NCBI GenBank assembly: GCA_009914755.4
Contig: CP068257.2
Coordinates: 36,896,001 to 36,960,000, forward strand
Source: the human T2T-CHM13v2.0 reference genome, Homo sapiens
Length of the DNA stretch: 64,000 bases
Direction: 5' to 3'
How positions within the stretch are numbered: the first letter of the stretch is position 1; each line of letters begins with the position of its first letter. The notes below the pieces were generated by a model. That model ran no database searches and was not told the DNA's origin. It worked only from the letters and a program-made list of their open reading frames with translations. This document shows, in pieces, positions 1-64,000 of the stretch. Made by a program: the position numbers and the translations under genes.

Positions 1-617
1 TAAAGAAAATAAAAATAAATAAACCACCACACAATATTTGGGCCTAGCCAGATAACAACAATGAAAAAATGTAATATTTTGAAGTATTGGCAAGAATGTG
101 GAGGAAAAAGCATTGACATTCGTGTATAATGGGAATAAAATAATTTATCCTTTGTCTCCGCAATTGATATTCTAGAAATCTATTTTTTAGAAATACTCAC
201 AATAGACAGTTATAAGTACAAAGGATGTCTGCTATTACACTGCTCAGTAACAGTAAAATATGAAAATACACTGTACGTCTTTCAATCAGATATTGAATAA
301 TTATACTACACAGTATTAAGAATGAGATAGATATTAATGTACTGCATAGAAAATATTCAAAGTATAATAAGTTTTAGAAAATTATCACATATGTATATTA
401 GCATATGCAGAGAAAACATCTTAAAATACAAATTTCAGTTTTGAGGTTTGGATCATGGAGTAACTGCCCCCTTTTCAAGTCAAACAGTTGAGAAAATTTA
501 GGATAAAACAAGTGTGTGCTACCTTTGTAATCAGATAAAGTATTTTAAAATAATTCACATTATAATATAGAAATACTGAAATGCCAAGAAAATTTAAATA
601 TATTAATTAAAACCTAC

Positions 618-936
<319 letters not shown>

Positions 937-1439
937 TTATAGAATACATAAATATATTAATATAGCTACAAAGAGGTTGAAGCTTATTCATTGAGACAAG
1001 AGTATTTATTGAGCATCGACTTTATTAAATACACTGTTAGTAAGATAACAAGTGAAACTTGTTAAAAAAAAAGAAACTAGGACAAAAGAAATTTGAGTTG
1101 AGTTCCCCAAAAACAGGGAATATTCAGATTGTAGGGGAAATTGGGTAAAGGATTTGTTTCAGCATGAAAGGAGCAAGGAGCAAAGAAACTAAATGGGAGG
1201 TTATGCTGAGAAGTATATCAGTATGAGGAAATATCTTGACATCTACAGACAAATATTTGTTGCCAATTCATTTTGGGCATTGAGGATTCACAAGAATAAT
1301 TAAAAACACGTAATATAAAATCCTTCTGATTAGAGCACATTTTATGGCACTGCATAAAGAGATGGCTGTGGGAGTCATTTATATTTTAATACTAACTTGA
1401 ACAAGGCTTGGTTCTGCAAATAAAACAGAAGAGTAAATA

Positions 1440-3057
1440 TGAAGTGGAGCACATAATAATGTTACTGTTTCTGTGGGTGAGCTTCCATAGGAAAGAGGCA
1501 AAGGCATCAATCTCAAAAAGTTAGAAAAACCCAAAGAAAGAAGAAGAAAAATAACAAATGAGAACAAAATTGAGAAAATTGTAAATAATATGGTAGAGAA
1601 GATAAACAAAACCAAATCTGGTTCTCTGAAAAGATTAGTTATGTGTAAGTCACTGGTGATTACAGAGAGAAAAGAGGGAAGGTTAAAATAACCAAAGTCA
1701 ACAATAAAAAGGGGGCTATTACTACAGATGCTGTAGACATTGGAAGGATAATAGAATATTATGATCAATTTCCTATCAATAAATGTGAAAAATTAGTTGA
1801 AATACATAATTGGAAAATATAATTTACCAAAACTGTCAAAAGAAAAAACACAAAACCTGAACTCCTATAATTATTAAAGACATTGATTGAAAAATCTCAG
1901 ACCTCTTAAAGGACAACTCCAAAAATAAAAAAATAAAAAAAAGAAAGAAAGTTCCAGGCCAGACGGATTTATCAGCAAATTCTAACATGCATTTAAAAAA
2001 AAAAGGATGCCACTCTTACATAAGCTTTTCAGATAAAAGAAAAGAAAGCTTGATACCAAAATGTAGCTAGAAAATTATTTAAAAAGGAAAATTATGGGTC
2101 AATTTCATACATAAACATAGATGCAAAATCCTAAATAAAATTCTAGAAAACAAAACCCAACAGTATATACGACAATAATATATATTGTGAACAAACTGGA
2201 TTTATTTTAAGAATGAAAGCTTGTTTCAATCAAATAATCAAATTTACATTGTAAAGAAAATTTATATAACTTTAAACAAAAGAAGAAAAGCACTTAATAA
2301 CATTCAACATTCATATTAAAAATTCTTAGTAAATTAGAAATAAAGAGGAAGTTTATAAATCCTACAAATTGATAAAAGGAATCTACCGAAACCTACAGTA
2401 AACCACACATTTTCATGTCAAAACTTTAAAATTTAATCATTTGAAGTTGGGGGAAAAGACAAAGAAGCCCCACATATTACCGCATTTGTCTGAAATTGAA
2501 TTGGCAGTCTTAGTTAGTAAAGAAGGCAAGGAAATGAAATGCAATGTTAAAGGATTGGGAAAAAGTAAATAAAACTTTATTTACAGATGACATCATTTTT
2601 TTACACAGAATTTCCAAGAGAATTTGGAAATAAGTCATTAGAATTAATAAATGAGTTTTAAAAGTTTGCTAGATACAAGGTCAATATAGAATTTTAGTTT
2701 TATATATCAGCATAAACATCAATAGAAATCAAAATTTTTAAGTGATACTGTTTTCATTAGCATTAAAAATACCTTACAATATGGACATAAATCTAACATA
2801 ATACGTGCAGAACCTCTACACCAAAAACTACAAAATATTATTAAAAGAAGACCAAAATAAATGGATAGATATATTCATGGATTGAAAAACTTAATAATCA
2901 AAGGTAGAATTTTCTTCAAATTGATCAATAGATTCAATGCAGATGCATTCAATATTTCAACAAAGTTTTTGTGAAACTTGAGTGATTCTAAAATATGTAT
3001 GGAAATGCAGAGTCAAAAACAGACAAGATGCTCTTAAAGAAGAGTGAGAAATACAAA
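1440..3057 (+). mobile_element. Old L1 (L1M-type) ORF2 fragment; 5' half of an element later split by insertion of a younger L1
   Basis: Sense-strand A-rich sequence is colinear with L1 ORF2. Examples: ...ttccaggccagacggatttatcagcaaattctaac (SPGPDGFTAEFYQ-like) and ...aaataaatggatagatatattcatggattgaaaaacttaataatcaaag ([18 protein letters not shown]). Many stops and frameshifts indicate an ancient copy. It ends abruptly at 3057, where a second L1 begins. Confidence 0.75.
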
Positions 3058-5992
3058 AGATTATCAGAGACTATTACAAACTGGAAAACCTAGAGGAAAT
3101 GGATACATTTCTGAACACATACAACCTGCCAAGATTGAATCAGAAAGAAACTGAAAACTTAAACAGACCAATAACAAGTAATAAGATTGGATAGGAAAAA
3201 AAATCTCCCAACAAAGAAAAGTCAAGGACCAGATGGTTTCACTACTAATTCTACCAAACTTAGAAAGAAGAACTAATACCAATCCTCACCAAGCCATTTC
3301 AAAAAATTAAAGAGGAGAGAATTCTTCCTAATTCATTCTATGAGGCCAACATTACCCTCATAACAAAATCAGACAAGAACACAACAAAAAAGAAAACTAC
3401 AGGCTGATATTCCTGATGAACATCACTTCAGTTCAGCATGGATACAGGCCAATATTTCTGGTGAATATAAGTTTTCTAGTATTTTGTTCAGCAAAAGCTA
3501 TCAACAAAATATTAGTAGCCTGAAACCAACAGCACATCAAAAAGATAATGCACCATGGTCAAGTGGGATGTATCCCAGAGATGCAAGGATGGTTCAACAT
3601 ACACAAATCAATAAATATGATACATCACATCAATAGATAAAAACAAAAACCATATGATCATATCAATAAATGCAGAAAAGGCATCTGATAAAACTTAACA
3701 TTGTTTCATAGTAAAAGCTCTCAACAAACTAGGTACAGAAGAAACATACCTCAATATATTAAAGTCCATACATGATTAACCCACAGCTAACATTATACTG
3801 AACGGGGAAAGGCGGAAAGTCTCTCCTCTAAGAACTGGAACAAGACAAGGATTCTCATTTTTATCACTTCTATTCAATATAGGACTGGAAGTCTTAGCCA
3901 GAGCAATCAGGCAAGAGAAAGCAATAAAGGTCATCCAAACTGGAAAAGAAGTCAAATTGTCCCTCTTTGGAGATGACATGATCTTACATCTAGAAAAACC
4001 TACAGACTCCACCAAAAAACTCTTAGGTTTAATTAAAAAATTCAGTAAAGTTGCAGGATACAAAAAAATCAGTAGCATTTATATACCCAATAATGCACTG
4101 GCTGAGAAAGAAATCAAGAAGAAAATCCCATTTACAATAGGTATAAGGAAAAAATATCTAGGAAAAAAATTAACCAAGGAAGCGAAAAATCTCTACAAAA
4201 AAACTACAAAACACTAATGAAAGAAATGGAAAAGGACACAAACAAATGAAAAGACACTGCATGGTCATGGATCAGAAGAACTAATATCATTAAAATGACC
4301 ACACCACCCAAATAAATCTACAGATTCAATGCAATCCCTGTTAAAATATTAACGTCATTTTTCACAAGAATAGAAAAAAACAATCCTAAAATTTATATGA
4401 AAGCAAAAAGGAGCCTGAATAGCTAAAGGAACCCTGAACAAAAACAACAAAACTGGGAGCATCACATAACCTGACTTCAAAATATATTACAAGGCTCTAG
4501 TAACCAAAAGAGCATGATACTAGTATAAAAACAGACGCATAGACCAATGGAACAGAATTGATAACCCAGAAATAAATCCACATATTCACAGCCAACCGAC
4601 TTTCAACAAAGGCATCAGTAACATACATTGGGAAAAAGACACCCTCTTCAATAAATGGTGCTGGAATAATTGGATATCCATATGCGAAAGAATAAAACTG
4701 GACCTCTATCTCTTGCCATATATAAAAATCAACTCAAGGTAGATGAAAGACTTAAACTTAAGACCCCAAATTATAAAACTATTAAAAGAAAATAGAGAAA
4801 ACATTTCAGGACATTGATCTAAGCAAAGATTTGATGGCTAAGACCTCAAAAGCACAGGCAAGAGAAAACAGACAAATGAGACTATATTAAACTAAAACAC
4901 TTCTGCACAGCAAAGGAAAGAAAACAACCAGCAGAGTGAAGAGACAACCTGTTGAATGGGATAAAATATTTGTAAACTGTTCATCTAGTAAGAGAAAATC
5001 CAGAATATACACAAAACTCAAACAACTCAACAATTAAAAAGAAAACTTTTACAAAGTGGGCAAAGAACGTCAATAGACATTTCTCAAAAGAAGACACAGG
5101 AATGGCCATCAAGCATATGAAAAAAAATACTCAATATCACTAATCATCAGGGAAATGCAAATCAAAACCACAATGAGATATCATCATACCTTAGTTAGAA
5201 TGGCAATTATTAAAAAGACAAAAAATAACAGATGCTGGCCAGAATGCAGAGAAAAGGGAACTCTTCTACACTGTGAGTGGGAATGTAAATTAGTACAGCC
5301 ACTATAGAAAACAGTAGAGATTTCTCAAAAAACTAAAAATAAGACTCAATATAATCCAGATATCTCACTACTGGGTATTTATCTAATGAAAAAGAAATCA
5401 GTATATCAAAAAGATACTTGCACCCACATGTTTACCGCAGCACTATTTACCATAGCAAAGACATGAAATCAACCTAAATGTCCATCCACAGATGAAATGG
5501 TAAACAAAATGTGGTACATATACACAATGGAATACTATTTGGCCATAAAAATAAGGAAATCATGTCACTTGCAGCAACATGGATGGAACCGGAGGTCATT
5601 ATGTCAAGTAAAATAAGCCAAGCACAAAGGACAAATACCACATGTTCTCACTCCTATGTGGGAGCTAAAAATGTTAATGTCATGGAGATAGAGAGTGGAA
5701 TGATGGTTACCAGAGGCTGAGCAGAGAGTGGGAGTGGAGAGGAAGAGAGTTTGGATAATGGGTACAAACATACAGTTAGATAGAAGGAATAAGTTCTGAT
5801 GTTGTATAGCAGAGTAGCTGACTATACTTAACAAAAATGTATTGTATAGTTCAAATCAGCTAGAAAAGAGGACTTGCAATGTTCCTGACACATAGAAATG
5901 AGAAATACCCAAGGTGACAGACACCCCAAAACCCTGACTTGATCATTACACATTCTATGCATGTAACAAACTATCACATGTACCCCATAACT
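3058..5992 (+). mobile_element. L1 LINE (L1PB/L1MA-like), 5'-truncated: ORF2 from ~codon 300 through RT domain and 3'UTR; nested inside the older L1
   Basis: Begins ...agagactattacaaactggaaaacctagaggaaatggatacatttctgaacacatacaacctgccaagattgaatc ([23 protein letters not shown]). It continues through ggatggttcaacatacacaaatcaataaatatgatacatcacatcaatag, ...gtcaaattgtccctctttggagatgacatgatcttacatctagaaaaacc (ORF track 3957-4217+ shows [22 protein letters not shown]...SKVAGYK), and ...atacacaatggaatactatttggccataaaaataaggaaatcatgtcacttgcagcaacatggatggaaccggaggtcattatg. The 3'UTR ends ...ggtgacagacaccccaaaaccctgacttgatcattacacattctatgcatgtaacaaactatcacatgtaccccataac. Confidence 0.85.
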
Positions 5993-5993
5993 A

Positions 5994-6005
5994 TGTGTGT
6001 GTGTG

Positions 6006-6056
<51 letters not shown>
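5994..6056. repeat. Compound microsatellite: (TG)6-7 followed by perfect (ATCT)12 / (TATC)n
   Basis: tgtgtgtgtgtgt is followed by 12 uninterrupted atct units (6007-6054), then atttat. The repeat sits at the 3' tail of the nested L1. Confidence 0.95.
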
Positions 6057-6102
6057 TTATAGTATCCATTTTTAAAAGGCAAATCTTAAAAAAAAGAGTG
6101 AG

Positions 6103-7745
6103 GTAGGACAACCTGCTCTACTAAACATTTTTATAAAGGCACAGCAATTAGGTCAGAATAGTGTTCATGCAGGTAGAAACAAATCAGACAATGGAAAAGA
6201 AAGGAAAGTTCAGAAACAGATTCACACATATATGGACACACTTGATTTTTGACGAAGGTGGCAGTTGATTTTTTTTTACAAAGGGGCAGAGTAGTTAAAA
6301 AAGGGAGAAACTGTTGGTAAATGATGCTGGAAAATGAGAAATCCACATGAGAAACAGAAACTTGAGAAGTAACTCATAACATCACAAAAATTGATGTCAG
6401 ATAAACTATAAATCTAAATATGACAAGCAAAAACTATGAAGTTTCTGGAACATAATATAGAAAACTATATTCCTGACTTGGGAAGGGAAAGATTTTAAAA
6501 ACAAGGCACAGAAACACTAAGAGTAAAGGAAAGACTAATAAATTGAACTGCATTAAAATAAGAAAAAAATTAGGAACTTAAATTTTCATCAAAAGACACT
6601 ATTAAGAGAATCAAAAGGCAATGCATGGAGTGGAAGATGATATCTTTAACACATCTAATCTACTATTCATATCCAGAATATGTAAAGAACCCCCATCAAT
6701 CAATAAGAATACACACAAGTCAGAATACACACAAGGAAAAACAGGGAAGAAACTGCACAGGCAGTCATAAAAGAGGATATCCAACTGCTCATTAAAAGGT
6801 CTTCTACTTCATTAGTAAAGCAGGAAGTACAAATTAAAACCTGAATGAAATAACACCACAGATACATCAGAATGTCTAAAACAAAGACTAACAATGTTGG
6901 TGAAGATGTGGAGCAATAAGAACTCTCACACACAGCTGGAGTTTAGAAAACATCCTTATTTATCCATCAGGGCTGTAATAAGAGGCATATAGCATATTCA
7001 AATAGGTAAGTGAACAAAATTTAATGAAAGAATTTACAACGGTAAAGGTAGAATTTAGTAAAAACCAAAGGGTGAGGAAGTCCCCCAGGCTAGCAAGAAC
7101 AGGAAGCCATTACTACCCTCAGGCCTACAAGGGCAAGGGAGGTAGCAGTCACGCAGCACCGGTAGCTGTGAACACAGGAGAGGATAAACAATAGGAGCTG
7201 TGGCCTTCCATGGAGGGAAAAAGTCACTGCCAACCCATGACCAAAGAGAGAAAGCTGGAGAAAAAAACTCCCCAAGCTCTCTCCTCCTACTCTCAGGCTT
7301 CCTTGTGGTGACTCTCATTTGCTTAACCCAACAGAAGATAGAGGACAAAGGAGCCCATTTGATGTAGTCGACAGAAGTCAAACTCCCAGGACAAGAGGAG
7401 CAGAGAAGGATGAAGAATGAATTAGAGAAGTAAACAAAGAAAGTCGGCACATCTACTGTCATCAAAGACTGTGTAATTCCACTATTTAATACATGTACAA
7501 TAGAGATGTGTGTATATGTGCACCAGAAGTCACCTACAAGAATGTCCACTGCAGTATTATTCTCTCAGTTAAATGCTATATCTGGCTGCACAACTAGATT
7601 AGGACTGAGACCCTAACCACACATGTAGAAGCAGGGAGAAAGATGCAGTTGAGAAGCCCTTTGCCATCTGATATGCTTCCAAACAAGGGAAACTCAGCTT
7701 GGACACTGAAAGCATTTTGTATAAAATACTGTTTGTATGATATCC
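6103..7745 (+). mobile_element. Old L1 (L1M-type) 3' portion (ORF2 C-terminal third + 3'UTR); continuation of the element at 1440-3057
   Basis: Resumes L1 ORF2 at exactly the point where 1440-3057 stopped: ...cacatatatggacacacttgatttttgacgaaggtggcag (PHIYGQLIFDKGAK-like) and ...gtctaaaacaaagactaacaatgttggtgaagatgtggagcaataagaactctcacacac (KCWRGCGE.GTL). The degenerate 3'UTR runs to the A-run at ~7800. Confidence 0.75.
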
Positions 7746-7797: not shown

Positions 7798-10700
7798 AAC
7801 AAAAACAAAAAAAAACTTCCAGGGTTACTTTTCTCCTCAGTTAGCAGGTCAAAACTTTTCACGTGTGAAATACTTTTGCAAGGAGGCAGATGAAACGGGG
7901 GAGAAGGGATAACCTTGCCTTGCAGTCATCTATCAATTCACTGCAAGGAAGGAACAGAGAGCTTAGATATGAAGCATCAGGAGTTCTTCCCAAGACCCTT
8001 CTTGTCCCTTGGGAAGAGCCAGGAGCTGGAGGGGATGGCCTTCACTGAGAAGTGGCATCAAATTAGAACCTGCACAACAAATAGGAACCAGCTACTTAAA
8101 GATCCAGAGAAGTAGCCCTCTAGACTGAAGGATCAGCTCCTCAAATATCCTTTTTGATTTTGAACTCACAAGTTCAGGGGCATCCGAGGAACAGACACAA
8201 GCCAGGGCTGAACAATCTCATCTGTGTCCATGAGGTGGGCAAGAGCCAGATCCTACTGAGGAGTTTGAACTTAATCCCAAACATGGCGGGAAGCCATTGG
8301 GGCCAAAGATGAATTAGGGATTGTCTGATCTCCTTGACACGTTCTGAAGGTTTTGTGTACAGAAAAGGTTTGTCAACATGCACAAAGGAAAGCTGGGATA
8401 ACCAAGCTAAGACGCTACCGCATCATTCTAGGGGACGGGTGACTCATTCCAGGAGTTTCTGCAGGAAGACCTATCAGGACTGGTGATTGACTGGAGGCAG
8501 AGAGCACGAAAAAAGAACAATCAGAGATGATCTGTGGTTTGTGGTTGTTGTGTAATGTTAAGGCTTAACAACTGCGAAAATAGTGTTTTTACTTTACAGA
8601 GAAGAAGACTTGAAGAATACAAGATTGGGGAGAGCAGATCGGGATTTGTACTTTATATCAGACGTGCTCATAGATATACATGTTGAGATATCAGTTGGGA
8701 GCTGGATATATCAGGATTCGAGACTGGGAATCACCAGTTTATAGATGGTTTTTAAGCCATGTGATTGGATCTCATTTCTTAGTGGGGAGAAGTGAGATAA
8801 CAAATAAAAGCCAAGATTAAAGCTGAACCTTCAGCCTGCCCATCACTTAGAAGCCCAGCAGGGACAGAAGAGCCAGCCGACAGCACAGAGTCGAGGAGGA
8901 GGATTTCCGGGCTTCAGTGAGTGTGCATCAGAGATTCATGGACACAACTTAAAGTAAGACCAGCCACACAGTTCCCTTCATTTTCTCAAGCAACATTCAG
9001 CATCTCAAAGTGCGGCTACTACACACGGAGCCAAGCCCTGGTCCAGTTATCACAAAACCTTACTAGATATGTCGATTATTAGCTGCATTTTATAGCTAAA
9101 GGTAGGCAGGCACAGAGAAGTTACGTCTCTTGCCCACAGTCACAGCAAGCAAACAGACCTCAGACCAAAGTCTTTCTAACTCCTTATTTCACATCTAAAA
9201 CACTATGTGACGCCACCTCCAAAAAATGTGGGGGTTACTCTAGGACAAAAGAAGCTCATGAAAGCAAAGAGAGAAGCATAGAGCTTAAATTTAGAACAAT
9301 ATTCAGGGTGATTGGGAAAAATAGCCTCCATACAAATATAATCGGTTCATCACCAGGTGAATAAAATGAGAGAGGAACCTGGTACAAGTGAAGTTCATTG
9401 AATTTGCTTGCAAAAAAACATAATTCAAGTGTGGAAGTTTGGAAACTAAAATAGTAATCAGCTAAAGAAATTTTCAGGCCAACTTAGACACAATGGTGAC
9501 AAAGCTCCCCTGAGGAGACAGGAACTATACTACTTGCAACTCTAACTGAATGGACTTAACTTAGCAATTAAGATCACCGTAAGTTTGATCAGATAAGTAT
9601 TAAAGGGTGTCTTGGGTACATTTGCAGATTCAGACACTCTTAGTTGTGAAATTCTTCACCAAAAATTTGCAACTTATGGCTTGCACATTAAAAACATGAT
9701 ATGAATGAAATTCAGATATCTCTTGGTAAATTTTATAATTATTCCTCCCATCAGCTAAAGTTCTCAGTATGAAGGGTTATAACTGATGTCATATACAATA
9801 ACTACAAGCTGTATCATACAAAAATTGAGAATTTTCTATTATAGAAAGAGTTGCTTTAATCTAAACCTAAAGTAGCATCAATAATTTTTCGTAAGTGGTC
9901 CCCTTCCTATGAGTAAGCCCCCAGGAAAAATAAATTGCTTTTAAGAAATGCTGTAAGTAAGCTGTTTCATATATAAGTTTTGACAAGATCTGGCTACTTA
10001 AATTACAAGATATAAAATGAGATTTGTACTTTTTCTCAAATGTAAAAAAAAAAGATTTACTTCTGAAATAATGGTCTTTATAAAATATGCATTTTTGTTC
10101 CTTTTTCTTATCATATCTATAAATTTACTAATAAAAGATTCTATCTTGATTTACTAACATTTGAAAAGATTGATTATATTGGTATTGCAAGAAGAGGATA
10201 CCATAAATTAAAAATCCATATATTAACCATATTCTTTTATTTGCAATATGACAAATGATTGTGTAAAGTTATAATCAATAAAAGCTATTTGAAAGTCATA
10301 AAATGGATATTGCCATAACTGCTTTCCTAGCAAGGTTAAAACACTTTAACTATTTTTAATCAACTTACAGTGTAGTAGATCAAGCATATCTAAATATTTT
10401 ATTTTAATCAAGCAAATATATTTCTGCTGTTCCTATGACAGTATGAAAGTTTGGTTCAAAATATTTCCAAGGTATTTAACACAGTTCAGTAGAGGTCCTG
10501 TCTCATAAATCAATTTCAGATTAGATAAAAGGAAAAAGCAAATTCTTGTTTACTTCAGAATTTTTCAAGCCAGTTCCAAAGACAGAGTTGTTACTCTCAT
10601 GTGAATTTTCAGTAGAAAGCTGAACAACGACGTTGCTCTGACAATCTTTTTAAATACCATATGATGGAGACAGAATAACAAAAACAAAGTAGGTATAAGC

Positions 10701-16184: not shown

Positions 16185-16519
<335 letters not shown>

Positions 16520-17388: not shown

Positions 17389-17760
<372 letters not shown>

Positions 17761-17824: not shown

Positions 17825-18130
17825 GTTTTTTAGTTTTGTTTTTGTTTTTGAGACAGAGTCTTGCTCTGTTGCCTGAGCTGGAGTGCAATGGTGCGAACTC
17901 AGCTCACTGCAACCTCCGCCTCCTGTATTCAAGTGATTCTCCCACCTTTGCCTCCTGAGTAGCTGAGACTATAGGCGCACACCACCATGCCCAGCTAATT
18001 TTTGCATTTTTAGTAGAGAGAGGGTTTCATCGTGTTGGCCAGGCTGTCCTCAAACTCCTGACCTCAAGTGATCCACCCGCCTCGGCCTCCCAAAGTGCCG
18101 GGATTGCAGAAGTGAGCCACTGCGTCCAGC
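17825..18130 (-). mobile_element. Alu SINE, antisense; forms an inverted pair with Alu 17455-17760 (64-bp spacer)
   Basis: ttttttagttttgtttttgtttttgagacagagtcttgctctgttgcctgagctggagtgcaatggtgcgaactcagctcactgcaacctccgcctcc ... cctcccaaagtgccgggattgcagaagtgagccactgcgtccagc. Confidence 0.9.
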
Positions 18131-27660: not shown

Positions 27661-27957
<297 letters not shown>

Positions 27958-29756: not shown

Positions 29757-30059
29757 TGTTTTTGTTTGTTTGTTTATTTTCGTTTTTGTTTTTCTTTTTT
29801 GAGATGGAGTCTCGCTCTGTTGCCCAGGCTGGAGTGCAGTGGCGTGTTCTCAGCTTACCACAACCTCTGCCTCCTGGGTTCAAGTGATTCTCCTGACTTG
29901 GCCGTGCCACCATGCCCAGCTAATTTTTTTACATTTTTGGTAGAGATGATGGGGTTTCACTGTGTTGGCCAGGCTGGTCTCGAACTCCTGACCTCGTGAT
30001 CCACCCGCCTCAGCCTCCCAAAGTGCTGGGATTACAGGCGTGAGTCACCGCGCCTGGCC
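29757..30059 (-). mobile_element. Alu SINE, antisense, with ~30-bp internal deletion; 10-bp TSD with one mismatch
   Basis: ...gagatggagtctcgctctgttgcccaggctggagtgcagtggcgtgttctcagcttaccacaacctctgcctcctgggttcaagtgattctcctgacttggccgtgccaccatgcccagctaattttt ... ggcgtgagtcaccgcgcctggcc. The usual ctcagcctcccgagtagctgggattacaggc block is missing. Flanks are ATACACTGTT (29741-29750) and ATGCACTGTT (30060-30069). Confidence 0.9.
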
Positions 30060-31455: not shown

Positions 31456-31814
<359 letters not shown>

Positions 31815-34800
31815 CTGGGGAACACTATTGAATAGTGTGGTCAGGGAAGGCTTTACTGTGAAGGTGATGAAGACCCAAAGAAAGTGAGGAACTAAGTCAT
31901 AAATGATGGGTAGAACATTCCGGATTGCGGGAGCAGCAAGTGCAAAGGCCCTGGGGTGAGGAATACCAAGAATGTTTGTGTGGGCAGAGCAGAAAGAACC
32001 AAGGGTAAAGCATTAGGAGATGAGGCTGAAGAAGTAACCGGGATCAGGTGGTTAGGGCCCTCAGGCCCTGGAGGAAGGCTGGCAGCGCTGGAGCCACACG
32101 GACTGACAATGTCTAGCAGTCATCCCGGCTCCCTGTGAAGAACAGACCCTCGCTTGCAGAGAAGCGAGGACAATTAGGAAAGCAGAGTCATGATCCACGC
32201 ACAGGATCACGGTGACTTGGACCAGAAAGAGAGCAGTGGAGCTGGGGAGTGACTCTTTTCAGTATTTCTCAGGTGGTACCAGTGGGATCTGCAGAGAATA
32301 CATAGTTAAAGGAAATGTCTGGAACTAAACATGACTCTTCAAACGTGATCCTACTGTGGCAGAAGAGAGGCGACTTTACATTTCCTTTCCCAGGATATCT
32401 TATTCTAATGAACACAGAAACCGTAAAATCAAGCCAACCAACATGATGAAAATGATTATATAAGGTACACAGCCCAGGCTGGATTTGAACTGATGAGGGA
32501 AAAAAAATCTCTAGTGAAAATTCCTCTCTCTAACCACAGCCTTCTCTCCTTCCATCTCTGCCTCACCCTTGCTCTTTCTGAAGCCTTCCTGGATGCTCAT
32601 GAAGCTCTCTCCTTCTTTGACTCATCCTATTTTCCCAGGACCTTTATCAACTCAGGGCTCTTCTCCCCTCCCCACAGTCAGCTCACTGTGCTCTGACTAG
32701 TTCCCTGAAATTGCTCATCCTCTTACTAACCAGGAAGCTTCTACCCGCTCTTGGTCTTCTTTCTCCACCCCAGTGCCAAAGAACTAAGCACTGATGGAGA
32801 AAAAGCATGCGGCTAATACTGTCTGTCTCTACCACAAATCTCATAATTTTTAAAATCCATTTGGAATTTACATTCACTCCTTAACTTCTTTTCATTCACT
32901 CCTAATTCACTTCCTATATAATTCTCTACACAGCTGCTGAAAACCTTCCTTTCTGCTGCCTCTTACCCCAAAACTACTCTCACATTACTCACAAAGGTTG
33001 ACCTTGTTTTCTATATACTTTTTTAGAGTAACGAAGCCATAAAATGTAAGTTCTTTCAACCTGGACCTCCCACTCTTGGGATTTCTCAATAGCTTCACCT
33101 GTATTCTCCCCCTTCACTCTTGACTCAGAGGTAAACGCTCCCTTGCTCCCAAATCCTTTAGCAACGTAGGGTTGATAATTGCTCCTTTCCAAATTTAATC
33201 CCTGCATCTGCGCCCCTGAGACAGACACTGCCATGATTTCCCAGCTTGCTGTCTTCTCCCTCCTGCATCTCCTCCCTTTCTCTGTGACGGATATTTTCCC
33301 TGTGCAAGAGAAATTTCTTCTGCCCTAAAATAAATAATCCAAAACATCTCTTGACTCCACTTAAGCTAACATTCAATATCTCACTTTCCCTTGTATTAAC
33401 AAAAGTTAATTGAGTCAGTACGGTGCTACAATTCTCAGACACAACGATAAACATGATAGAGACCATCAACATGCCTTGGCATTTTGCCTGCTTTCTCTTC
33501 AATTACTTGCAACTTGGCTTCTACTGAGCTCCACTGAAAAAGCTTTCATGACATGACCACATCCAATCCCAAAGAAACTGTCCCCTTGCCCAGTGGTCTT
33601 CAAAACCCTCCAACTCCACAGTGTCTCATTAACTCCAACTCATTTCCTACTAAACATCTCTTCTCAGCTCTTCAAAGTCAAAGATTGCGAACCAAATCTA
33701 CAGACTTCTCCTCTCTTCTCCTTTGGGTCCAACTCCATCCTTCTCCATGAAACTTCTTATTCCTAGAAATGGTGTCTGCACCTTTTAGGCTTCCAGGCTT
33801 GAGCCTAGAGTCATCTTTAACTCTTTCCATACCCAGACTCCCAAGACCCAGTCAGCTGTTTAGGTGTCTCCTCTGTATGCAGCACTTACTGTCATTGCCC
33901 TGGTCCATCTCCCAGAGCCCACATCTTGTCCCACTGTCTGCAAAGCCTTTCCTATATGCTGGATATAAGTGCAAACTCCCCCTAAAATCCCATTGAAGTT
34001 TTTACTTTTTTCTATCTTCTTTTTTTACTTCTTTTTATCTTCCTCTACTCACACAGAAGTGCTCCAATTATGAGGACCTTATTTTATTCCCTTTACTGTC
34101 AAACACAAAGCCAACATGCCATACGAAAAGATAGTACTGTGCTTCCTTCAGTGCCACTCTAGCACGCCCACTCCAGCACACCCTTCTTGTGCGGGTGTAT
34201 GCTCATGTGATACTATCACAGGCAACACTTACTATGCAATACGTTTTCCACAATCACAATATTTCCACAATATTGTGATATGAGCTCATTCTTCAGGCCT
34301 TGACACAAGCGCCCACAAACCTAAGAGAATGCATTTTCATTTTTATGATACACAGTTTTCGACTGCTCCACTCTGGCTGCCAAGGCATTCCTCCTCCAAA
34401 TCACAATGTCTATATCAAAAGAAGAACAATGAGGGAGAGCTGGAGGTAGCGCTAAGAAACAACCTGGTCCAGCTCCCAGGTCTCATAGAGAACACTCAGA
34501 ACACGCTTGTTAGAGGTATCTGCTCCTGGCCTCAGCTTCTCAGAAGCAATTACACATCTTCTGGGTAAACGTGGAGTGTGCAGCACAGAATACCAAAGCT
34601 GAGCTTCCCATTGTACCTGGTTGTTGATCTCCTCGTTGACCTCCCTCAGCTGAATATTTCTTAAGAACAGTGTTCAATTAATCCAACTATCCCTGGTGGC
34701 TGGCAGGATGAATCAGTTATGACTTATTTCATGTTTGTGGGTGGGTGTATGAAGTGGTCCTCAAAGGAGATTTTTGCTCTCTGCAGACAGTCTGCCTGTC

Positions 34801-36192: not shown

Positions 36193-36537
<345 letters not shown>

Positions 36538-36600
36538 AGTCATATGATTTCTAAAGAGAAACTGAACAGTTATTTGTAGAAACTCTGCAAAGCATGACTT

Positions 36601-37042
<442 letters not shown>

Positions 37043-39905: not shown

Positions 39906-42632
<2,727 letters not shown>

Positions 42633-42818
42633 CTATCTCACATTATACATCTAAAAAATCCAAATAGATTAGATTTAATTAAAAATTAAACCATAAAACA
42701 CAGAAAGAAAATACAGATGAATAGTTATATAATTTAGGATGAGAACAGCCTCTGTCAGGATGAACTAAAGAATTCACAAAAAAAAATGTTAACAAATTAA
42801 ATGACATGTTAAAAATCT

Positions 42819-43120
<302 letters not shown>

Positions 43121-47457: not shown

Positions 47458-47799
<342 letters not shown>

Positions 47800-55890: not shown

Positions 55891-55980
55891 TCTCCTTCCA
55901 CTGCTATATGTAACAGTATCTCCCCTTCCACTGCTATATGTAACAGTATCTCCCCTTCCACTGCTATATGCACCAGTATG
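55891..55980 (+). repeat. Minisatellite: 3 tandem copies of a 30-bp unit tc(c/t)ccttccactgctatatgtaacagtatc
   Basis: Copies sit at 55891-55920, 55921-55950 (identical except one base) and 55951-55980 (3' end diverged to ...tgcaccagtatg). ORF 55792-56004 translates it as SPSTAICNSI x3. Confidence 0.9.
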
Positions 55981-59015: not shown

Positions 59016-59320
59016 TTGGTCATGCCTGTAATCCCAGCATTTTGGGAGGCTGAGGTGGGAGGATTGCTTGAGCCCAGAGTTTGAGACCAGCCTGGGCAAG
59101 ATAGTGAGACCTTGTCTCTGCAAAAAAAATAAAAATTAGCTGGGTGTAGCGGTGCACACCTGTAGTCCCAGCTACTCAGGAGGTTGAGGCAGGAAGATCG
59201 CTTGAGCCTGGGAGGCAGAGGCTGCAGTGAGCCATAATCATACCACTGCACTCCAGCCTGGGCAACAGAGCAAGACTATGTCTTAAAAAAAATAAATAAA
59301 AATAAATAATAAATAAAAAA
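59016..59320 (+). mobile_element. Alu SINE, sense, 5'-truncated by ~15 bp, (AAATA)n-rich tail
   Basis: tggtcatgcctgtaatcccagcattttgggaggctgaggtgggaggattgcttgagcccagagtttgagaccagcctgggcaagatagtgagaccttgtctctgcaaaaaaaataaaaattagctgggtgtagcggtgcacacctgtagtcccagc ... gcaagactatgtcttaaaaaaaataaataaaaataaataataaataaaaaa. ORF 58958-59251(-) is the Alu peptide. Confidence 0.85.
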
Positions 59321-59745
59321 TTTTTAAAAAAGGTACCTGGAACGGCCTGCAAAGAAAGGGAAATCAAATTATGCTTCAAGACAGTCACTATTATCACTGA
59401 CAGAGAAGCAGCTAAAATAAACAGCCTGCTCATTTTGTTTGTAAATGAATTGCCACAATTCTTGCACTATTTAAATCAAGAATATTTTATATTCCATAGT
59501 TTTCAACCACCCCTCCTTTTTTTATTGTTTCCAGCTCCTTAAACATATAAAAGGATAAAAGCCATTTGTTCTGGCAGAAAAGAGTCATCATAAATTTTGC
59601 AGAGTGAATTTCTCTAAGATGAAAGGAATGTTCCTCTCCTCCAGGACAGCCTACGGACAGGACTGTGATGACACAGAGTCTTCACGGGAATCACACCTGC
59701 AGTGTTAAGCCACTTCTGTGGAAAACTCAAGTCCTTCTCAGATAA

Positions 59746-60238
<493 letters not shown>

Positions 60239-60631
60239 TCAAAAACTCCCATATCAGGCATTTTAATGAATCAGTGGAAGAAAATTATCCTCCCAACTTT
60301 GTTGTCAAGAACCCCAATTTCATATGCAGAAAAAAGAATTACAAAAATAATTATTCGAATTCTAATTGGTGGGATTTTGATAGGTTTATAAAGGAAATAA
60401 ATATCTTTAACACAATTCTACCTCGCAGCCAACATCAGCTATTAGCAACCACACTTCTTATTGCCAGTTCATCTCTCCAAACACACAGAAGCCATGTGAG
60501 TTGAAATTTATTTTTTAAAAACTCTCAGTTATGATTTCTCAAAATTATATTTCATATATTGACATCAACCAATATGATGATGATATTATATATTGACATT
60601 AACCAATACGATCAACCAATATGATGATAAT

Positions 60632-61657
60632 TGTAGGGAAAAGAAAGAGAGATCTGACTGTTACTGTGTCTATGTAGAAAGGAAAGACATAAGAGACTCC
60701 ATTTTGAAAAAGACCTGTACTTTAAACAATTGCTTTGCTGAGATGTTGTTAATTTGTAGCTTTGCCCCAACCACTTTGCCCTAGCCACTTTGACCCAACC
60801 TGGAGCTCACAAAAACATGTGTTGTATAAAATCAATGTGTAAGGGATCTAGGGCTGTGCAGGACGTGCCTTGTTAACATGTTTACAAGCAGTATACTTGG
60901 TAAAAGTCATCGCCATTCTCTAGCCTCAATAAACCAGGGGCACAATGCACTGCGGAAAGCCGCAGGGACCTCTGCCCTTGAAAGCGGGGTATTGTCCAAG
61001 GTTTCTCCCATGTGATAGTCTGAAATATGGCCTCGTGGGATGAGAAAGACCTGACTGTCCCCCAGCCCGACACCCGTAAAGGGTCTGTGCTGAGGTGGAT
61101 TAGTAAAAGAGGAAAGCCTCTTGCAGTTGAGATAGAGGAAGGCCACTGTCTCCTGTCTGCCCCTGGGAACTGAATGTCTCAGTATAAAACCCAATTGTAC
61201 ATTTGTTCAATTCTGAGATGAGAGAAAAACCGCCCTATGGTGGAAGGTGAGACATGTTTACAGCAATGCTGCTTTGTTATTCTTTACTCCGCTGAGATGT
61301 TTGGGTGGAGAGAAACATACATCTGGCCTATGTGCACATCCAGGCATAGTACCTTCCCTTGAACTTAATTATGACATAGATTCTTTTGCTCACATGTTTT
61401 TTGCTGACCTTCTCCTTATTATCACCCTGCTCTCCTACTACATTCCTTTTTGCTAAAATAATGAAAATAATAATCAATTAAAACCGAGGGAACTCAGAGG
61501 CCGGTGCCGGTGCAGGTCCTTGGTATGCTGAGCGCCGGTCCCCTGAGCCCACTGTTGTTTCTCTATACTTTGTCTCTGTGTCTTATTTCTTTTCTCAGTC
61601 TCTCGTCCCACCTGACTAGAAATACCCACAGTTGTGGAGGGGAAGGTCACCCCTTCA
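60632..61657 (+). mobile_element. Solo LTR of HERV-K (HML-2), LTR5 family (LTR5A/B-like rather than LTR5_Hs), 1026 bp, TG...CA termini, 6-bp TSD GATAAT
   Basis: Starts tgtagggaaaagaaagagagatctgactgttactgtgtctatgtagaaaggaaagacataagagactccattttg. Contains ...ctgcggaaagccgcagggacctctgcccttgaaagcggggtattgtccaaggtttctcccatgtgatagtctgaaatatggcctcgtgggatgagaaagacctgactgtcccccagcccgacacccgtaaagggtctgtgctgaggtggattagtaaaagaggaaag ... gtctcagtataaaacccaattgtac ... ggaactcagaggccggtgccggtgcaggtccttggtatgctgagcgccggtcccctgagcccactgttgtttctctatactttgtctctgtgtcttatttcttttctcagtctctcgtcccacctgactagaaatacccacagttgtggaggggaaggtcaccccttca. Flanks are gatgataat|TG...CA|gataataag. There is no primer-binding site (tggcgcccaacgtgggg) or internal sequence downstream, so this is a solo LTR. 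Confidence 0.85.
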
Positions 61658-64000
61658 GATAATAAGATAAATCAGAGCCGAAAACATAGTTCATTCCTGA
61701 AATCAAATATAGAACGTTTCTACCAACACACATTTTCAAAGATGGTGTTTTCAGGTTTGTATGGGATTGTTTCACCTTTATGAATTAGCTTTTTAAAACC
61801 TGTAATACTTTCTTGCTGACTTCATCATTTCCTTCTGGTTGCCTGGAGGGGTGGTGTGGAATGCTAATAAAATGAATTTCAGTTGCCGTCCCTCACAATC
61901 TGAACTATAGAAGATATTTATTGTCTCAACTTCCCTATGAGCTTTTCTTTGCATCATGCAGCTTCATGGTCAGCAGACACTAAAAATTAAAGAAAGTCTT
62001 TCTCCCACTTTACTTGTGTAGCACAGACACACTGATCAAATATGTTCCCAGCACTTCCGAAGAAACCTTATCACATCCACAAGAGATTTCCTACTTGCAC
62101 TTTTTTTGATAAACACAACCATCATAGCCCAACAAAACATCACACAGAAATCAAATTATAGTGTCCCCATAAGCATCTGCTCCTCTATGGCCTTGGGCAA
62201 AATTTAGAATCCTCGACATCCCTAGAGTTACCACAATCTCTGAAAGTGAAGGAGCACCCACAAAGCTCAAGGAATGCATTGAAACTCTTATTACTTCCAA
62301 TTCCATTTTCAAAAAAAGTAAATGTGTGTGCATGTGAGCTGCACATGGTCCAGAATGCCTCACCAAATGTATTGTTTTAAAATGTGTGTACGTCCATGTG
62401 TAATTGTATGTGTGGGATTTTGAAAGGCTTTTTATATTTTATTCAAAAAGGTACACTTTTCAATATCACAAACTTTGCTTTCAATTATAAGCCCTTCCCA
62501 TTTTCAATTAATGTTTTAGGCAAGGAATATACATTAGTAAAACCAACCACACCACTTAGGGAAAATGAATTAGTATGGGGAAAGTGAAGAACTGGCCATG
62601 CAGTCAATTACTTTGGCCAGCATAGATATAGTTGAACTAACCAGCACAGGTGTAGACAGCCTGTTTGGATAAGGTAGCTTAAGCCCCAATTTTTTCTGCA
62701 GTCTTTATTTTTGTCAAATATATGAAAACTACCATCTCATTTCCTCCCTGTAGCTATTACCCACATGTATGTGTAGTGTCAAAATAAATGGCCAGAGTCC
62801 TCTCAGGGACCTCCCTTGGCACAAGTCGCACTTCCTCACCCTCTCACCTCCAGAGCCTCAGGAAGTGCAGGTCAGAAAGCAGCCAGGGCAGGTGTGAGGT
62901 GATGGAGCGCTGAGTGTCGGCGAGCCCAGATAAAACAACGTTCCAACATCGGAAATCCAATCATTCACCTACTTGTCTCCTGCTCGCTAACCCCAGGCAA
63001 GTATAAAGGAGATGGAATTATAACAGGAGTTAGAAGAATTTGGATGTGATTTCATATATTAACTCAGCAAAATTTTTTCTGAAAAGGTCCAGACAGTAAA
63101 TATTTTCAGCTGGCAGGCCATATGGTCTTTGTCGAACCTACTCAACTGTGCCATTATGGAGTGAAGGCAGCCACAGATGATATAGAAATGAATGCATGGG
63201 GCTGTGTTCCAATAAAGCTTTCTTTATGGACACTGAAATGTAAATTTCATGCAATTTACATGTGTTACGAAATATGCTTCTTTTGATTTTTCAACCATTT
63301 AAAAAAGTAAAAACCATTTTCTTAGCTCCTGGGCTGTGTTGACTGACCCCTAATTAACTGATATGTGGGCTGCTATCCATGAAAACCTAGGCACAGAGGA
63401 AGGCAGAGCTGGCTTCCCAGCCAAGACGGGACTTACCTTGATATGAGCTGCTGGGTCCGGGACAGTCTGAATCATGTCCTTCAGTAAGCCAGCCCATCTA
63501 CCAGCTGTTCAGAACCTGACGGCTAGAAGACAAAAGGAACAACATACATAATAATAAACAATTGCATTTCTGTGTTTTATGTTCTAGCAGGACAGGACAC
63601 AATTCACCAATGGCAAAAGAATCATAGCTTTACATTAAACATGTTTGCCTAAAGGCATCCTCTAGGTACGTGTGGTCCATGAGGTGACTAGATAACTCAC
63701 TTCCCTTCCATTGGGAAAATCACTTACAATGAGCCCAAGAGAACCCTAGTCCGACAGGACAGAAGAATCTAGCTCAAGCTAACCCACATCACATGCAGCA
63801 TCCACACATCCTTCCACGTGGGCAGCATCTAATGAGGGATCCATTAAAGGAAGACGTGGGACTAAAACAGGGCATACTTCTCTATCATACTGAGAAAACA
63901 GGACTTTGAAATCCCACCAAAACTCTATGCGATCTGCACATCCTTTTCAGCTTCGTTATTAAGTTCTTAGTAAACAGCACAGCTACCGTTCATTGAGTAC

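What the first reader, a model, noticed from the sequence alone, without database searches (positions are those of the whole stretch)
60560..61665. Solo HERV-K (HML-2) LTR5 with intact 6-bp TSD (GATAAT) and retained CpGs; potential promoter/enhancer; target site sits in a locally duplicated motif
A 1026-bp LTR5 with canonical TG...CA ends is flanked by GATAAT on both sides (60626-60631 and 61658-61663). It has no PBS or internal region, so it is a solo LTR formed by LTR-LTR recombination. HML-2 LTRs carry bidirectional promoter and enhancer activity and are frequent sources of lineage-specific regulatory innovation. It differs from my memory of the LTR5_Hs consensus in the U3 region around 60850-60950, so it is probably the older LTR5A/B type and fixed. 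The ~70 bp immediately upstream is itself a tandem duplication (tattgacatCaaccaataTgatgatgatattata / tattgacatTaaccaataCgatcaaccaatatgatgataat).
Basis: partly seen in the sequence, partly recalled or inferred. Interest (0 to 1): 0.5.

Follow-up and report, generated by a model that had tools for sequence, protein, structure and literature searches.

The report
Ordinary solo HERV-K LTR5A relic
This is a single leftover long terminal repeat of an ancient HERV-K (HML-2) retrovirus, of the older LTR5A subtype, in a primate genome; it is one of a few hundred such relics and nothing about it is unusual.

Summary
Window 60632-61657 (+) is a complete 1026-bp retroviral LTR (TGTAGGG...CCTTCA). It is flanked on both sides by the same 6-mer, GATAAT (60626-60631 and 61658-61663). 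Homology to LTR copies in 39 unrelated contigs starts and stops exactly at those ends. The window holds no second copy, no tRNA-Lys primer-binding site and no polypurine tract, so it is a solo LTR.

The subfamily is LTR5A. The first 394 nt are 97.7% identical to the published first 399 nt of the Dfam LTR5A consensus, against 90.2% for LTR5B and 80.8% for LTR5Hs. All three published diagnostic indels point to LTR5A.

Divergence is about 2-3%. About 14 of 24 inferred ancestral CpGs survive, which is mid-range for LTR5A copies, so the "retained CpGs" are not special. The element lacks the OCT4 octamer and the two p53 sites that published work ties to LTR5Hs activity. Published work also reports much weaker promoter and enhancer activity for LTR5A.

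The small tandem duplication just upstream is real but trivial.

Verdict: a correctly spotted, already-known kind of repeat, most likely a neutral relic. Low interest.

The parts
60626..60631 (.). Left copy of the 6-bp target-site duplication, GATAAT
   Evidence: Read directly. It is identical to 61658-61663. Chance probability is about 5e-4. HERV-K target-site duplications are typically 5-6 bp (PMC5488345).
60632..61657 (+). Complete solo LTR of HERV-K (HML-2), subfamily LTR5A, 1026 bp, TG...CA termini
   Evidence: The first 394 nt are 97.7% identical to Dfam LTR5A DF0000556.4 (first 399 nt as printed in PMC9430305 Table S2), against 90.2% for LTR5B and 80.8% for LTR5Hs (alignment A1). Homology to LTR5A copies in 39 contigs ends exactly at these coordinates. 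There is no second copy in the window.
61658..61663 (.). Right copy of the 6-bp target-site duplication, GATAAT
   Evidence: It is followed by AAGATAAATCAGAGCC, which is not a primer-binding site. The PBS-Lys pattern has 0 hits at up to 3 mismatches anywhere in the window.
60707..60712 (+). 6-nt insertion (GAAAAA) shared with LTR5A and absent from LTR5B and LTR5Hs
   Evidence: Alignment A1, columns 76-81.
60760..60801 (+). 14-nt tandem array (CTTTGCCCCAACCA, about 3 copies). It contains the 27-nt LTR5A-specific insertion at about 60767-60793.
   Evidence: TRF finds period 14, 2.9 copies; repeat family D4. Alignment A1 columns 140-166 are gapped in LTR5B and LTR5Hs. Subramanian et al. define an LTR5A-specific insertion at position 135 of the LTR5A consensus. 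The same array is visible in the LTR5A provirus 4q13.2.
61183..61188 (+). TATAAA, homologous to the element called the TATA box in LTR5Hs (Liu et al.)
   Evidence: Motif scan. Liu et al. give TATAA in LTR5Hs against TGTAA in LTR5B 12p11.1. That it functions here is an inference.
61236..61268 (+). Region homologous to the two p53 sites of LTR5Hs. The window reads TGGTGGA and TTTACAGC where LTR5Hs has GGGCTGG and GGGCAGC, so neither site sequence is present.
   Evidence: Sequence, compared with the motif sequences in PMC9430305.
61313..61335 (+). AAACATACATCTGGCCTATGTGC, the LTR5A/B-type segment that replaces the POU2F1 site (TGTATGCATAT) of LTR5Hs
   Evidence: Liu et al. give the LTR5B counterpart as TAGAGTCAAACATAAATCTGGCCTATGTGC. 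Subramanian et al. report an insertion shared by more than 99% of LTR5A/B. Coordinates.
61477..61482 (+). ATTAAA, where other LTR5A copies have AATAAA (A-to-T change at LTR position 848). This is a variant polyadenylation hexamer close to the inferred U3/R border.
   Evidence: The border is inferred from the -792/+177 numbering of LTR5Hs in PMC9430305. Function was not tested.
60549..60625 (+). Small tandem duplication in the host flank: about 34-nt units at 60549-60578 and 60583-60612, with a nested 13-nt repeat at 60601-60625. It ends at the target site.
   Evidence: Family D1; TRF period 13; 26/30 matches against a maximum of 23 in 500 shuffles. It is host flank, not part of the retroviral element.

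Best explanation
A HERV-K (HML-2) retrovirus of the LTR5A lineage integrated into the germline of an ancestral catarrhine or hominoid. Integration duplicated the 6-bp target GATAAT. Later, homologous recombination between the provirus's two LTRs removed the internal genes and left one LTR between the two target copies. Since then the LTR has drifted as methylated, neutral DNA: about 2-3% substitutions, two small deletions, and loss of about 40% of its CpGs. It keeps a TATAAA and a variant polyadenylation hexamer. It lacks the OCT4 and p53 sites that make the younger LTR5Hs a strong embryonic enhancer and promoter. Its most likely present role is therefore none, or at most weak context-dependent promoter or poly(A) activity. 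What is shown: the element's identity, subfamily, boundaries, target-site duplication, solo state, divergence and motif states. What is inferred: the recombination origin, the age, fixation in the population, and the lack of function.
For: Ends and target-site duplication. Solo state: no second copy in 64 kb, no PBS-Lys at up to 3 mismatches, and the left flank ATATGATGATAAT is not a polypurine tract. Subfamily: 97.7% identity to Dfam LTR5A, 90.2% to LTR5B and 80.8% to LTR5Hs over the first 394 nt. LTR5A-specific insertions are present (definition in PMC3228705; 4q13.2). The LTR5A/B segment is present. The LTR5Hs 4-nt insertion is absent. The length of 1026 bp fits Dfam LTR5A (1033) and catalogued LTR5A solo LTRs (about 1010-1036). 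Drift: 3.3% from a consensus of contig copies, which itself matches Dfam LTR5A at 397/399; 17 strictly private substitutions, or up to 28 counting those shared with at most 2 other lineages; 14 of 24 ancestral CpGs kept, mid-range for the family. Low regulatory expectation: no octamer on either strand; the OCT4-motif region reads ATGACATAGA where LTR5Hs has ATGCAAAGA; p53-site sequences are absent. In the literature, LTR5A/B show no OCT4 or H3K27ac enrichment and only local CRISPRa/i effects, and the LTR5A reporter is significantly weaker than LTR5Hs.
Against: Only the first 399 nt of the Dfam consensuses were available. The 3' 630 nt were compared with contig-derived LTR5A copies, literature fragments and an LTR5Hs consensus recalled from memory. 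That recalled consensus was validated at 397/399 against the printed part. Lack of function is inferred from motifs and family-level literature, not measured at this locus. LTR5A did show some reporter activity, and the TATAAA and ATTAAA hexamers are intact. The species and genomic locus were not identified, so fixation and orthology are untested.
Confidence: 0.93

Rival explanations
1. The LTR is a co-opted regulatory element (alternative promoter, enhancer or poly(A) site) for a nearby host gene.
For: TATAAA at 61183-61188 and ATTAAA at 61477-61482 are intact. An LTR5A reference (11p15.4) has measurable though low reporter activity in both orientations. This copy is among the less diverged LTR5A copies: 2.3% from Dfam over the first 394 nt, with all 5 CpGs of that part kept.
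Against: There is no OCT4 octamer and no p53-site sequences. Family-level data show no OCT4 or H3K27ac enrichment and only local effects for LTR5A/B. Ten of 24 ancestral CpGs are lost, as expected for a methylated silent repeat. The window has no CpG island, no Pfam-recognisable coding ORF of 100 aa or more, and no Rfam gene that it could serve.
Confidence: 0.06
2. It belongs to LTR5B, or is a 5A/5B intermediate or recombinant, rather than LTR5A.
For: LTR5A is nested within LTR5B in published trees, and RepeatMasker sometimes mislabels the two (PMC3228705). Position 31 (T) matches LTR5B and LTR5Hs rather than the Dfam LTR5A consensus. The 3' 60% could not be compared with the Dfam LTR5B consensus.
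Against: Identity over the first 394 nt is 97.7% to LTR5A against 90.2% to LTR5B. Both LTR5A-only insertions are present. The 3' part is 95-97% identical to LTR5A-insertion-bearing copies over the full length. T at position 31 is also the majority state among the LTR5A contig copies.
Confidence: 0.03
3. It is one LTR of a provirus or of a rearranged or segmentally duplicated structure, and the GATAAT match is coincidental.
For: Only 2.3 kb of sequence is visible downstream of the LTR. Many LTR5A copies sit in segmental or tandem duplications.
Against: The same 6-mer abuts both ends (p of about 5e-4). The base after the LTR is not a primer-binding site, and no PBS-Lys exists in the window. The left flank is not a polypurine tract. 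No other LTR5 homology exists in the upstream 60.6 kb or the downstream 2.3 kb.
Confidence: 0.01

Closest known systems
LTR5A (Dfam DF0000556), an LTR subfamily of HERV-K (HML-2)
   Same: 97.7% identity over the 394 nt that could be compared. It shares TGTAGGG...CA termini, the 6-nt and 27-nt LTR5A insertions, the LTR5A/B segment in the 3' half, a similar length (1026 against 1033) and a 6-bp target-site duplication.
   Different: Only copy-specific decay: about 17-28 private substitutions, a 3-nt deletion (AAA after LTR position 246), a 1-nt deletion in a C-run, and AATAAA changed to ATTAAA.
LTR5Hs (Dfam DF0000558), the young hominoid-specific HML-2 LTR with OCT4-dependent enhancer activity
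   Same: Same retroviral group and overall architecture. Long conserved blocks, for example CTGCGGAA.GCCGCAGGGACCTCTGCC...GTATTGTCCAAGGTTTCTCC. Both have TATAAA.
   Different: About 80% identity. The window copy lacks the LTR5Hs 4-nt insertion, the OCT4 octamer, the POU2F1 site and both p53-site sequences. It carries about 50 nt of extra LTR5A or LTR5A/B insertions.
LTR5B (Dfam DF0000557), the oldest HML-2 LTR subfamily
   Same: 90% identity over the first 394 nt, and the same 3'-half insertion relative to LTR5Hs.
   Different: LTR5B lacks the 6-nt and 27-nt insertions present here and begins TGTGGGG rather than TGTAGGG.
SVA SINE-R module (derived from HERV-K env and LTR)
   Same: It shares part of the LTR5 sequence.
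   Different: An SVA has hexamer repeats, an Alu-like region, a VNTR and a poly(A) tail, with a 12-16-bp L1-type target-site duplication. None of these is present. Here the whole LTR from TG to CA is present with a 6-bp duplication.

Membership tests
HERV-K (HML-2) LTR5A | Best sequence match is to the LTR5A consensus rather than to LTR5B or LTR5Hs | tested here: met
   97.7% against 90.2% against 80.8% over the first 394 nt, using the Dfam consensus fragments printed in PMC9430305 Table S2. The 3' 630 nt could be compared only with LTR5A copies from contigs and literature fragments, at 95-97%.
HERV-K (HML-2) LTR5A | LTR5A-specific insertion at about position 135 of the consensus (Subramanian et al. 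2011) | tested here: met
   The 27-nt insertion at LTR 136-162 (window 60767-60793) lies inside the 14-nt tandem array. It is gapped in LTR5B and LTR5Hs and is seen in the LTR5A provirus 4q13.2. Definition.
HERV-K (HML-2) LTR5A | Insertion shared by more than 99% of LTR5A/B and absent from LTR5Hs (alignment position 806) | tested here: met
   AAACATACATCTGGCCTATGTGC at 61313-61335 matches the LTR5B counterpart sequence given in PMC9430305. The extra segments relative to LTR5Hs fall at LTR 654-684.
HERV-K (HML-2) LTR5A | Absence of the LTR5Hs-specific 4-nt insertion (consensus position 461) | tested here: met
   The window reads GAGGAAAGCCTCTTGCAG, the same as the 4q13.2 row GAGGAAAG----CCTCT of the published alignment. 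A 4-nt AGGA gap appears against the recalled LTR5Hs consensus.
HERV-K (HML-2) LTR5A | Canonical LTR ends (TG...CA) and a length of about 1004-1033 bp | tested here: met
   TGTAGGG...CCTTCA, 1026 bp. Catalogued LTR5A solo LTRs span about 1010-1036 bp.
Solo LTR (product of 5'/3' LTR recombination) | A single LTR flanked directly by identical 5-6-bp target-site duplications | tested here: met
   GATAAT on both sides. The typical HERV-K duplication is 5-6 bp.
Solo LTR (product of 5'/3' LTR recombination) | No primer-binding site, polypurine tract, internal sequence or partner LTR adjacent | tested here: met
   PBS-Lys has 0 hits at up to 3 mismatches. There is no second LTR copy and the flanks are non-retroviral. 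None of the 17 ORFs of 100 aa or more in the window has a Pfam hit. A direct search with HERV-K internal sequence was not possible: the two-LTR contigs fetched turned out not to be proviruses.
Solo LTR (product of 5'/3' LTR recombination) | Empty pre-integration site in an outgroup species, or a full provirus at the orthologous site | not testable with these tools
   No primate genome collection is available. A search for the flank in genome contigs and viral contigs found nothing.
LTR5Hs-type OCT4/p53-responsive enhancer-promoter | OCT4 octamer motif in U3 | tested here: not met
   No ATGCAAAT, ATGCAAAG or ATGCWWWW on either strand. The homologous stretch reads TTATGACATAGATTC. The literature states that LTR5A/B lack the motif.
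LTR5Hs-type OCT4/p53-responsive enhancer-promoter | Two p53 sites (GGGCTGG and GGGCAGC) and a POU2F1 site in the -263..0 segment | tested here: not met
   The window has TGGTGGA and TTTACAGC, and the POU2F1 site is replaced by the LTR5A/B segment.
LTR5Hs-type OCT4/p53-responsive enhancer-promoter | Active chromatin or LTR-initiated transcripts at the locus | not testable with these tools
   No expression or chromatin data are available, and the locus was not identified.

The most novel reading that the evidence does not exclude
This particular LTR5A copy is unusually little diverged: 2.3% over its first 394 nt, with all five CpGs of that part intact, and TATAAA and ATTAAA both present. It might have been kept hypomethylated and used as a tissue-specific alternative promoter or polyadenylation site of a neighbouring host transcript, even though LTR5A as a family is weak.
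Probability: 0.05. Interest if true: 0.3.

Novelty: already known. Interest (0 to 1): 0.07.

Why it matters
It matters little. Solo LTR5A elements number about 300 in the human genome: 306 LTR5A insertions are quoted in PMC6158008, and many are catalogued individually in PMC3228705. Standard repeat annotation finds them. The value of this check is negative and clarifying. The element is real and correctly delimited, but it belongs to the old, regulatorily weak subfamily. The features that made it look interesting, namely CpG retention, promoter/enhancer potential and a target site in a duplicated motif, are ordinary.

Tried and rejected
1. I tried to find this exact copy among the 43 hg38 LTR5A sequences in Table S2 of PMC9430305, using private k-mers in both orientations. 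It was not found; two k-mers hit a different copy at chr20:29758964. The genomic locus therefore stayed unidentified. The table holds only a subset of LTR5A copies and only 400 nt of each.

2. I searched for the left flank in genome contigs and viral contigs to find the same locus or an empty site. There were 0 hits.

3. I tried to use contigs L007 and L023, which each carry two LTR5A copies 7.66 kb apart, as a source of HERV-K internal sequence for a provirus test. The sequence between the LTRs is not retroviral. These are tandem duplication units, each carrying a solo LTR with the target-site duplication CTTGGA. The blast result is therefore uninformative about internal HERV-K sequence.

4. 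Rfam on the region and on the whole window gave only sub-threshold Alu-derived hits (SRP, mir-1268, mir-3135, mir-1285, mir-1972) and nothing in the LTR.

5. Pfam on all 17 ORFs of 100 aa or more gave no hits, so no gene context could be established.

6. A consensus built from the metagenome contigs is dominated by one amplified lineage. I did not take the 3.3% divergence at face value and used lineage-by-lineage comparison instead.

7. The solo-LTR catalogue of PMC3228705 lists LTR5A elements of the same span, for example chr1:113359399-113360425 with span 1026. Span alone cannot identify the locus, so I did not pursue it.
Full report
**Observation.** An element begins TGTAGGGAAAAG at 60632 and ends GTCACCCCTTCA at 61657, a length of 1026 bp. 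The hexamer GATAAT lies immediately before it (60626-60631) and immediately after it (61658-61663). With the local base composition a 6/6 match has a probability of about 5e-4. Across the window, 6-mers at that spacing match at 39 of 62962 positions. HERV-K target-site duplications are typically 5-6 bp (PMC5488345).

**Element boundaries.** The boundaries do not rest on the TG...CA rule alone. I fetched 39 contigs that carry related LTRs; they are host DNA in metagenome assemblies, found with an LTR5A-specific pattern. I then blasted the LTR plus 600-bp flanks against them. Homology starts at query 601 and stops at query 1626 in nearly all full-length copies, which corresponds exactly to window 60632 and 61657. 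None of these contigs is the same locus.

**Solo state.** A sensitive self-blastn finds no second copy of the LTR anywhere in the 64 kb. The HERV-K tRNA-Lys primer-binding site TGGCGCCCAACGTGGGGC has no match at up to 3 mismatches. The base after the LTR is the repeated GATAAT followed by unrelated sequence. The left flank...CAATATGATGATAAT, is not a polypurine tract. A single LTR between identical target-site duplications is the signature of a solo LTR. Its origin by recombination between the two LTRs of a provirus is the standard inference (PMC3228705) and was not tested directly.

**Subfamily.** Dfam itself is not available here. However, Table S2 of Liu et al. 2022 (PMC9430305) prints the first 399 nt of the Dfam consensuses for LTR5A (DF0000556.4), LTR5B (DF0000557.4) and LTR5Hs (DF0000558.4), and of three reference proviral LTRs. 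Identity of the first 394 nt of the window LTR, counted over ungapped positions, is as follows:

| Reference | Identity | Mismatches and gaps |
|---|---|---|
| Dfam LTR5A | 97.7% | 9 mismatches, 3 gap events |
| Dfam LTR5B | 90.2% | 40 gap columns |
| Dfam LTR5Hs | 80.8% | 41 gap columns |
| 11p15.4 (LTR5A provirus) | 93.7% | - |
| 12p11.1 (LTR5B provirus) | 81.8% | - |
| K113 (LTR5Hs provirus) | 80.8% | - |

- The multiple alignment (A1) shows that the window shares three features with both LTR5A sequences: the TGTAGGG start, a 6-nt insertion (60707-60712) and a 27-nt insertion (about 60767-60793). LTR5B and LTR5Hs lack all three.
- The 27-nt insertion consists of extra copies of a 14-nt unit, CTTTGCCCCAGCCA. 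TRF finds these as a 2.9-copy array at 60760-60800.

**Published diagnostic features.** Subramanian et al. 2011 (PMC3228705) define the subgroups by three features: an LTR5A-only insertion at consensus position 135, an insertion shared by more than 99% of LTR5A/B, and a 4-nt insertion at position 461 in LTR5Hs. All three point to LTR5A.
- The first is the 27-nt insertion just described. It is also visible in their aligned LTR5A provirus 4q13.2.
- The second corresponds to AAACATACATCTGGCCTATGTGC at 61313-61335. This matches the LTR5B counterpart of the LTR5Hs POU2F1 site given by Liu et al..
- The third is absent. The window reads GAGGAAAGCCTCT, like the gapped 4q13.2 row.
- A full-length alignment with an LTR5Hs consensus that I recalled from memory gives 80.3% identity and places the indels at the same positions. 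I checked that recalled consensus against the printed 399 nt, and it matched at 397/399.
- The length of 1026 bp fits LTR5A (Dfam 1033; catalogued solo LTR5A spans of about 1010-1036). It does not fit LTR5Hs (968) or LTR5B (1002).

**Divergence and CpGs.** A majority consensus of the contig copies matches Dfam LTR5A at 397/399 in the part that can be checked. The window LTR differs from that consensus by 3.3% plus two deletions.
- That consensus is dominated by one amplified lineage, so I compared lineage by lineage. Seventeen substitutions are private to the window copy. Eleven more are shared with at most two other lineages. Seven are shared with at least four other lineages and look ancestral or polymorphic. 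This gives about 1.7-2.7% change since integration.
- With the 0.34%/My clock used for solo LTRs in PMC3228705 this would be under 10 My. With a single-lineage neutral rate of roughly 0.13-0.2%/My (my own knowledge) it is about 10-20 My. Published LTR5A ages are about 11.5-25 My for solo LTRs and about 15-21 My for the period of activity. The copy is thus on the young, little-diverged side of an old family.
- The copy keeps 14 of about 24 inferred ancestral CpG sites, against 4-18 in other copies. Its CpG o/e is 0.31, against 0.23 for the window. Loss of 10 CpGs is what a germline-methylated neutral repeat shows. The "retained CpGs" are therefore not a signal.

**Regulatory potential.** The LTR keeps TATAAA (61183-61188). 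The usual AATAAA has become ATTAAA (61477-61482), a common variant hexamer. It lacks the elements tied to LTR5Hs activity:
- It has no octamer or OCT4 motif on either strand. The homologous stretch reads TTATGACATAGATTC.
- The two p53 sites read TGGTGGA and TTTACAGC where LTR5Hs has GGGCTGG and GGGCAGC.
- The POU2F1 site is replaced by the LTR5A/B segment.

Fuentes et al. 2018 (PMC6158008) report that LTR5A and LTR5B lack the OCT4 motif. They show no OCT4 or H3K27ac enrichment in NCCIT or naive hESC, and only local effects under CRISPRa/i. Liu et al. report significantly lower reporter activity for LTR5A and LTR5B than for LTR5Hs in all cell lines tested. A regulatory role for this copy cannot be excluded, but the prior is low, and nothing in the window suggests a client gene. 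There is no CpG island and no Rfam gene at gathering threshold. None of the 17 ORFs of 100 aa or more has a Pfam hit.

**Flank.** The roughly 80 nt upstream of the insertion point contains a genuine small tandem duplication. Segments 60549-60578 and 60583-60612 match at 26/30, with a nested 13-nt repeat at 60601-60625. None of 500 shuffles reached that score. The target hexamer is the end of the second unit. The direct repeat across the LTR is only 6 bp, so this is not one of the long target-site duplication cases described in PMC5488345. I see no mechanistic link; it is AT-rich, low-complexity host sequence.

**Context.** Numerous dimeric Alu elements appear as sub-threshold SRP, mir-1268 and mir-3135 hits in the Rfam E-value scans. 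Two lie at 59056-60139, just upstream of the LTR. They show that the window is primate DNA. The species and locus were not identified.

**Verdict.** This is a correctly spotted, complete solo LTR of HERV-K (HML-2), subfamily LTR5A, with an intact 6-bp target-site duplication. It is an already-known, routinely annotated kind of repeat and most likely a neutral relic. Interest is low.

Noticed in passing
L007:522-1580 and 8195-9224; L023:852-1894 and 8509-9528: Two metagenome (host-contaminant) contigs each carry two LTR5A copies in direct orientation about 7.66 kb apart. The sequence between them is not retroviral. The first LTR is followed by CTTGGA and the second is preceded by CTTGGA. These are therefore tandem duplication units that each contain a solo LTR, not proviruses. 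Most of the 39 contigs fetched share just three left flanks, which suggests a few LTR5A insertions amplified by segmental or tandem duplication. From memory this resembles the FAM90A 7.6-kb repeat units, but that was not tested.
   Followed up: partly
window 620-899, 16236-16518, 17456-17740, 18014-18130, 27678-27827, 29944-30058, 31534-31676, 36241-36888, 42820-43102, 47471-47755, 59056-59286, 59850-60139: Many paired sub-threshold Rfam hits to Metazoa_SRP and to mir-1268, mir-3135, mir-1972 and mir-1285. This is the usual footprint of dimeric Alu elements and marks the window as primate DNA. None reaches a gathering score.
   Followed up: partly
window 55894-55979: A 30-nt minisatellite, 2.9 copies at 96% identity (CCTTCCACTGCTATATGTAACAGTATCTCC).
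   Followed up: no
window 6006-6060: A (TATC)n microsatellite, 13.8 copies.
   Followed up: no
window 1-7000 and 40001-43000: Long stretches with strong positive AT skew (0.2-0.39) and low GC (26-38%). This is compatible with A-rich sense-strand L1 sequence, but it was not examined. ORFs of 100 aa or more in these stretches have no Pfam hits.
   Followed up: no
window 33001-34000: The strongest local GC skew in the window (-0.376), i.e. a C-rich + strand. The cause was not examined.
   Followed up: no
window 60055-60504: A 149-aa ATG ORF on the + strand just upstream of the LTR. It starts inside an Alu and has no Pfam match, so it is almost certainly spurious.
   Followed up: partly
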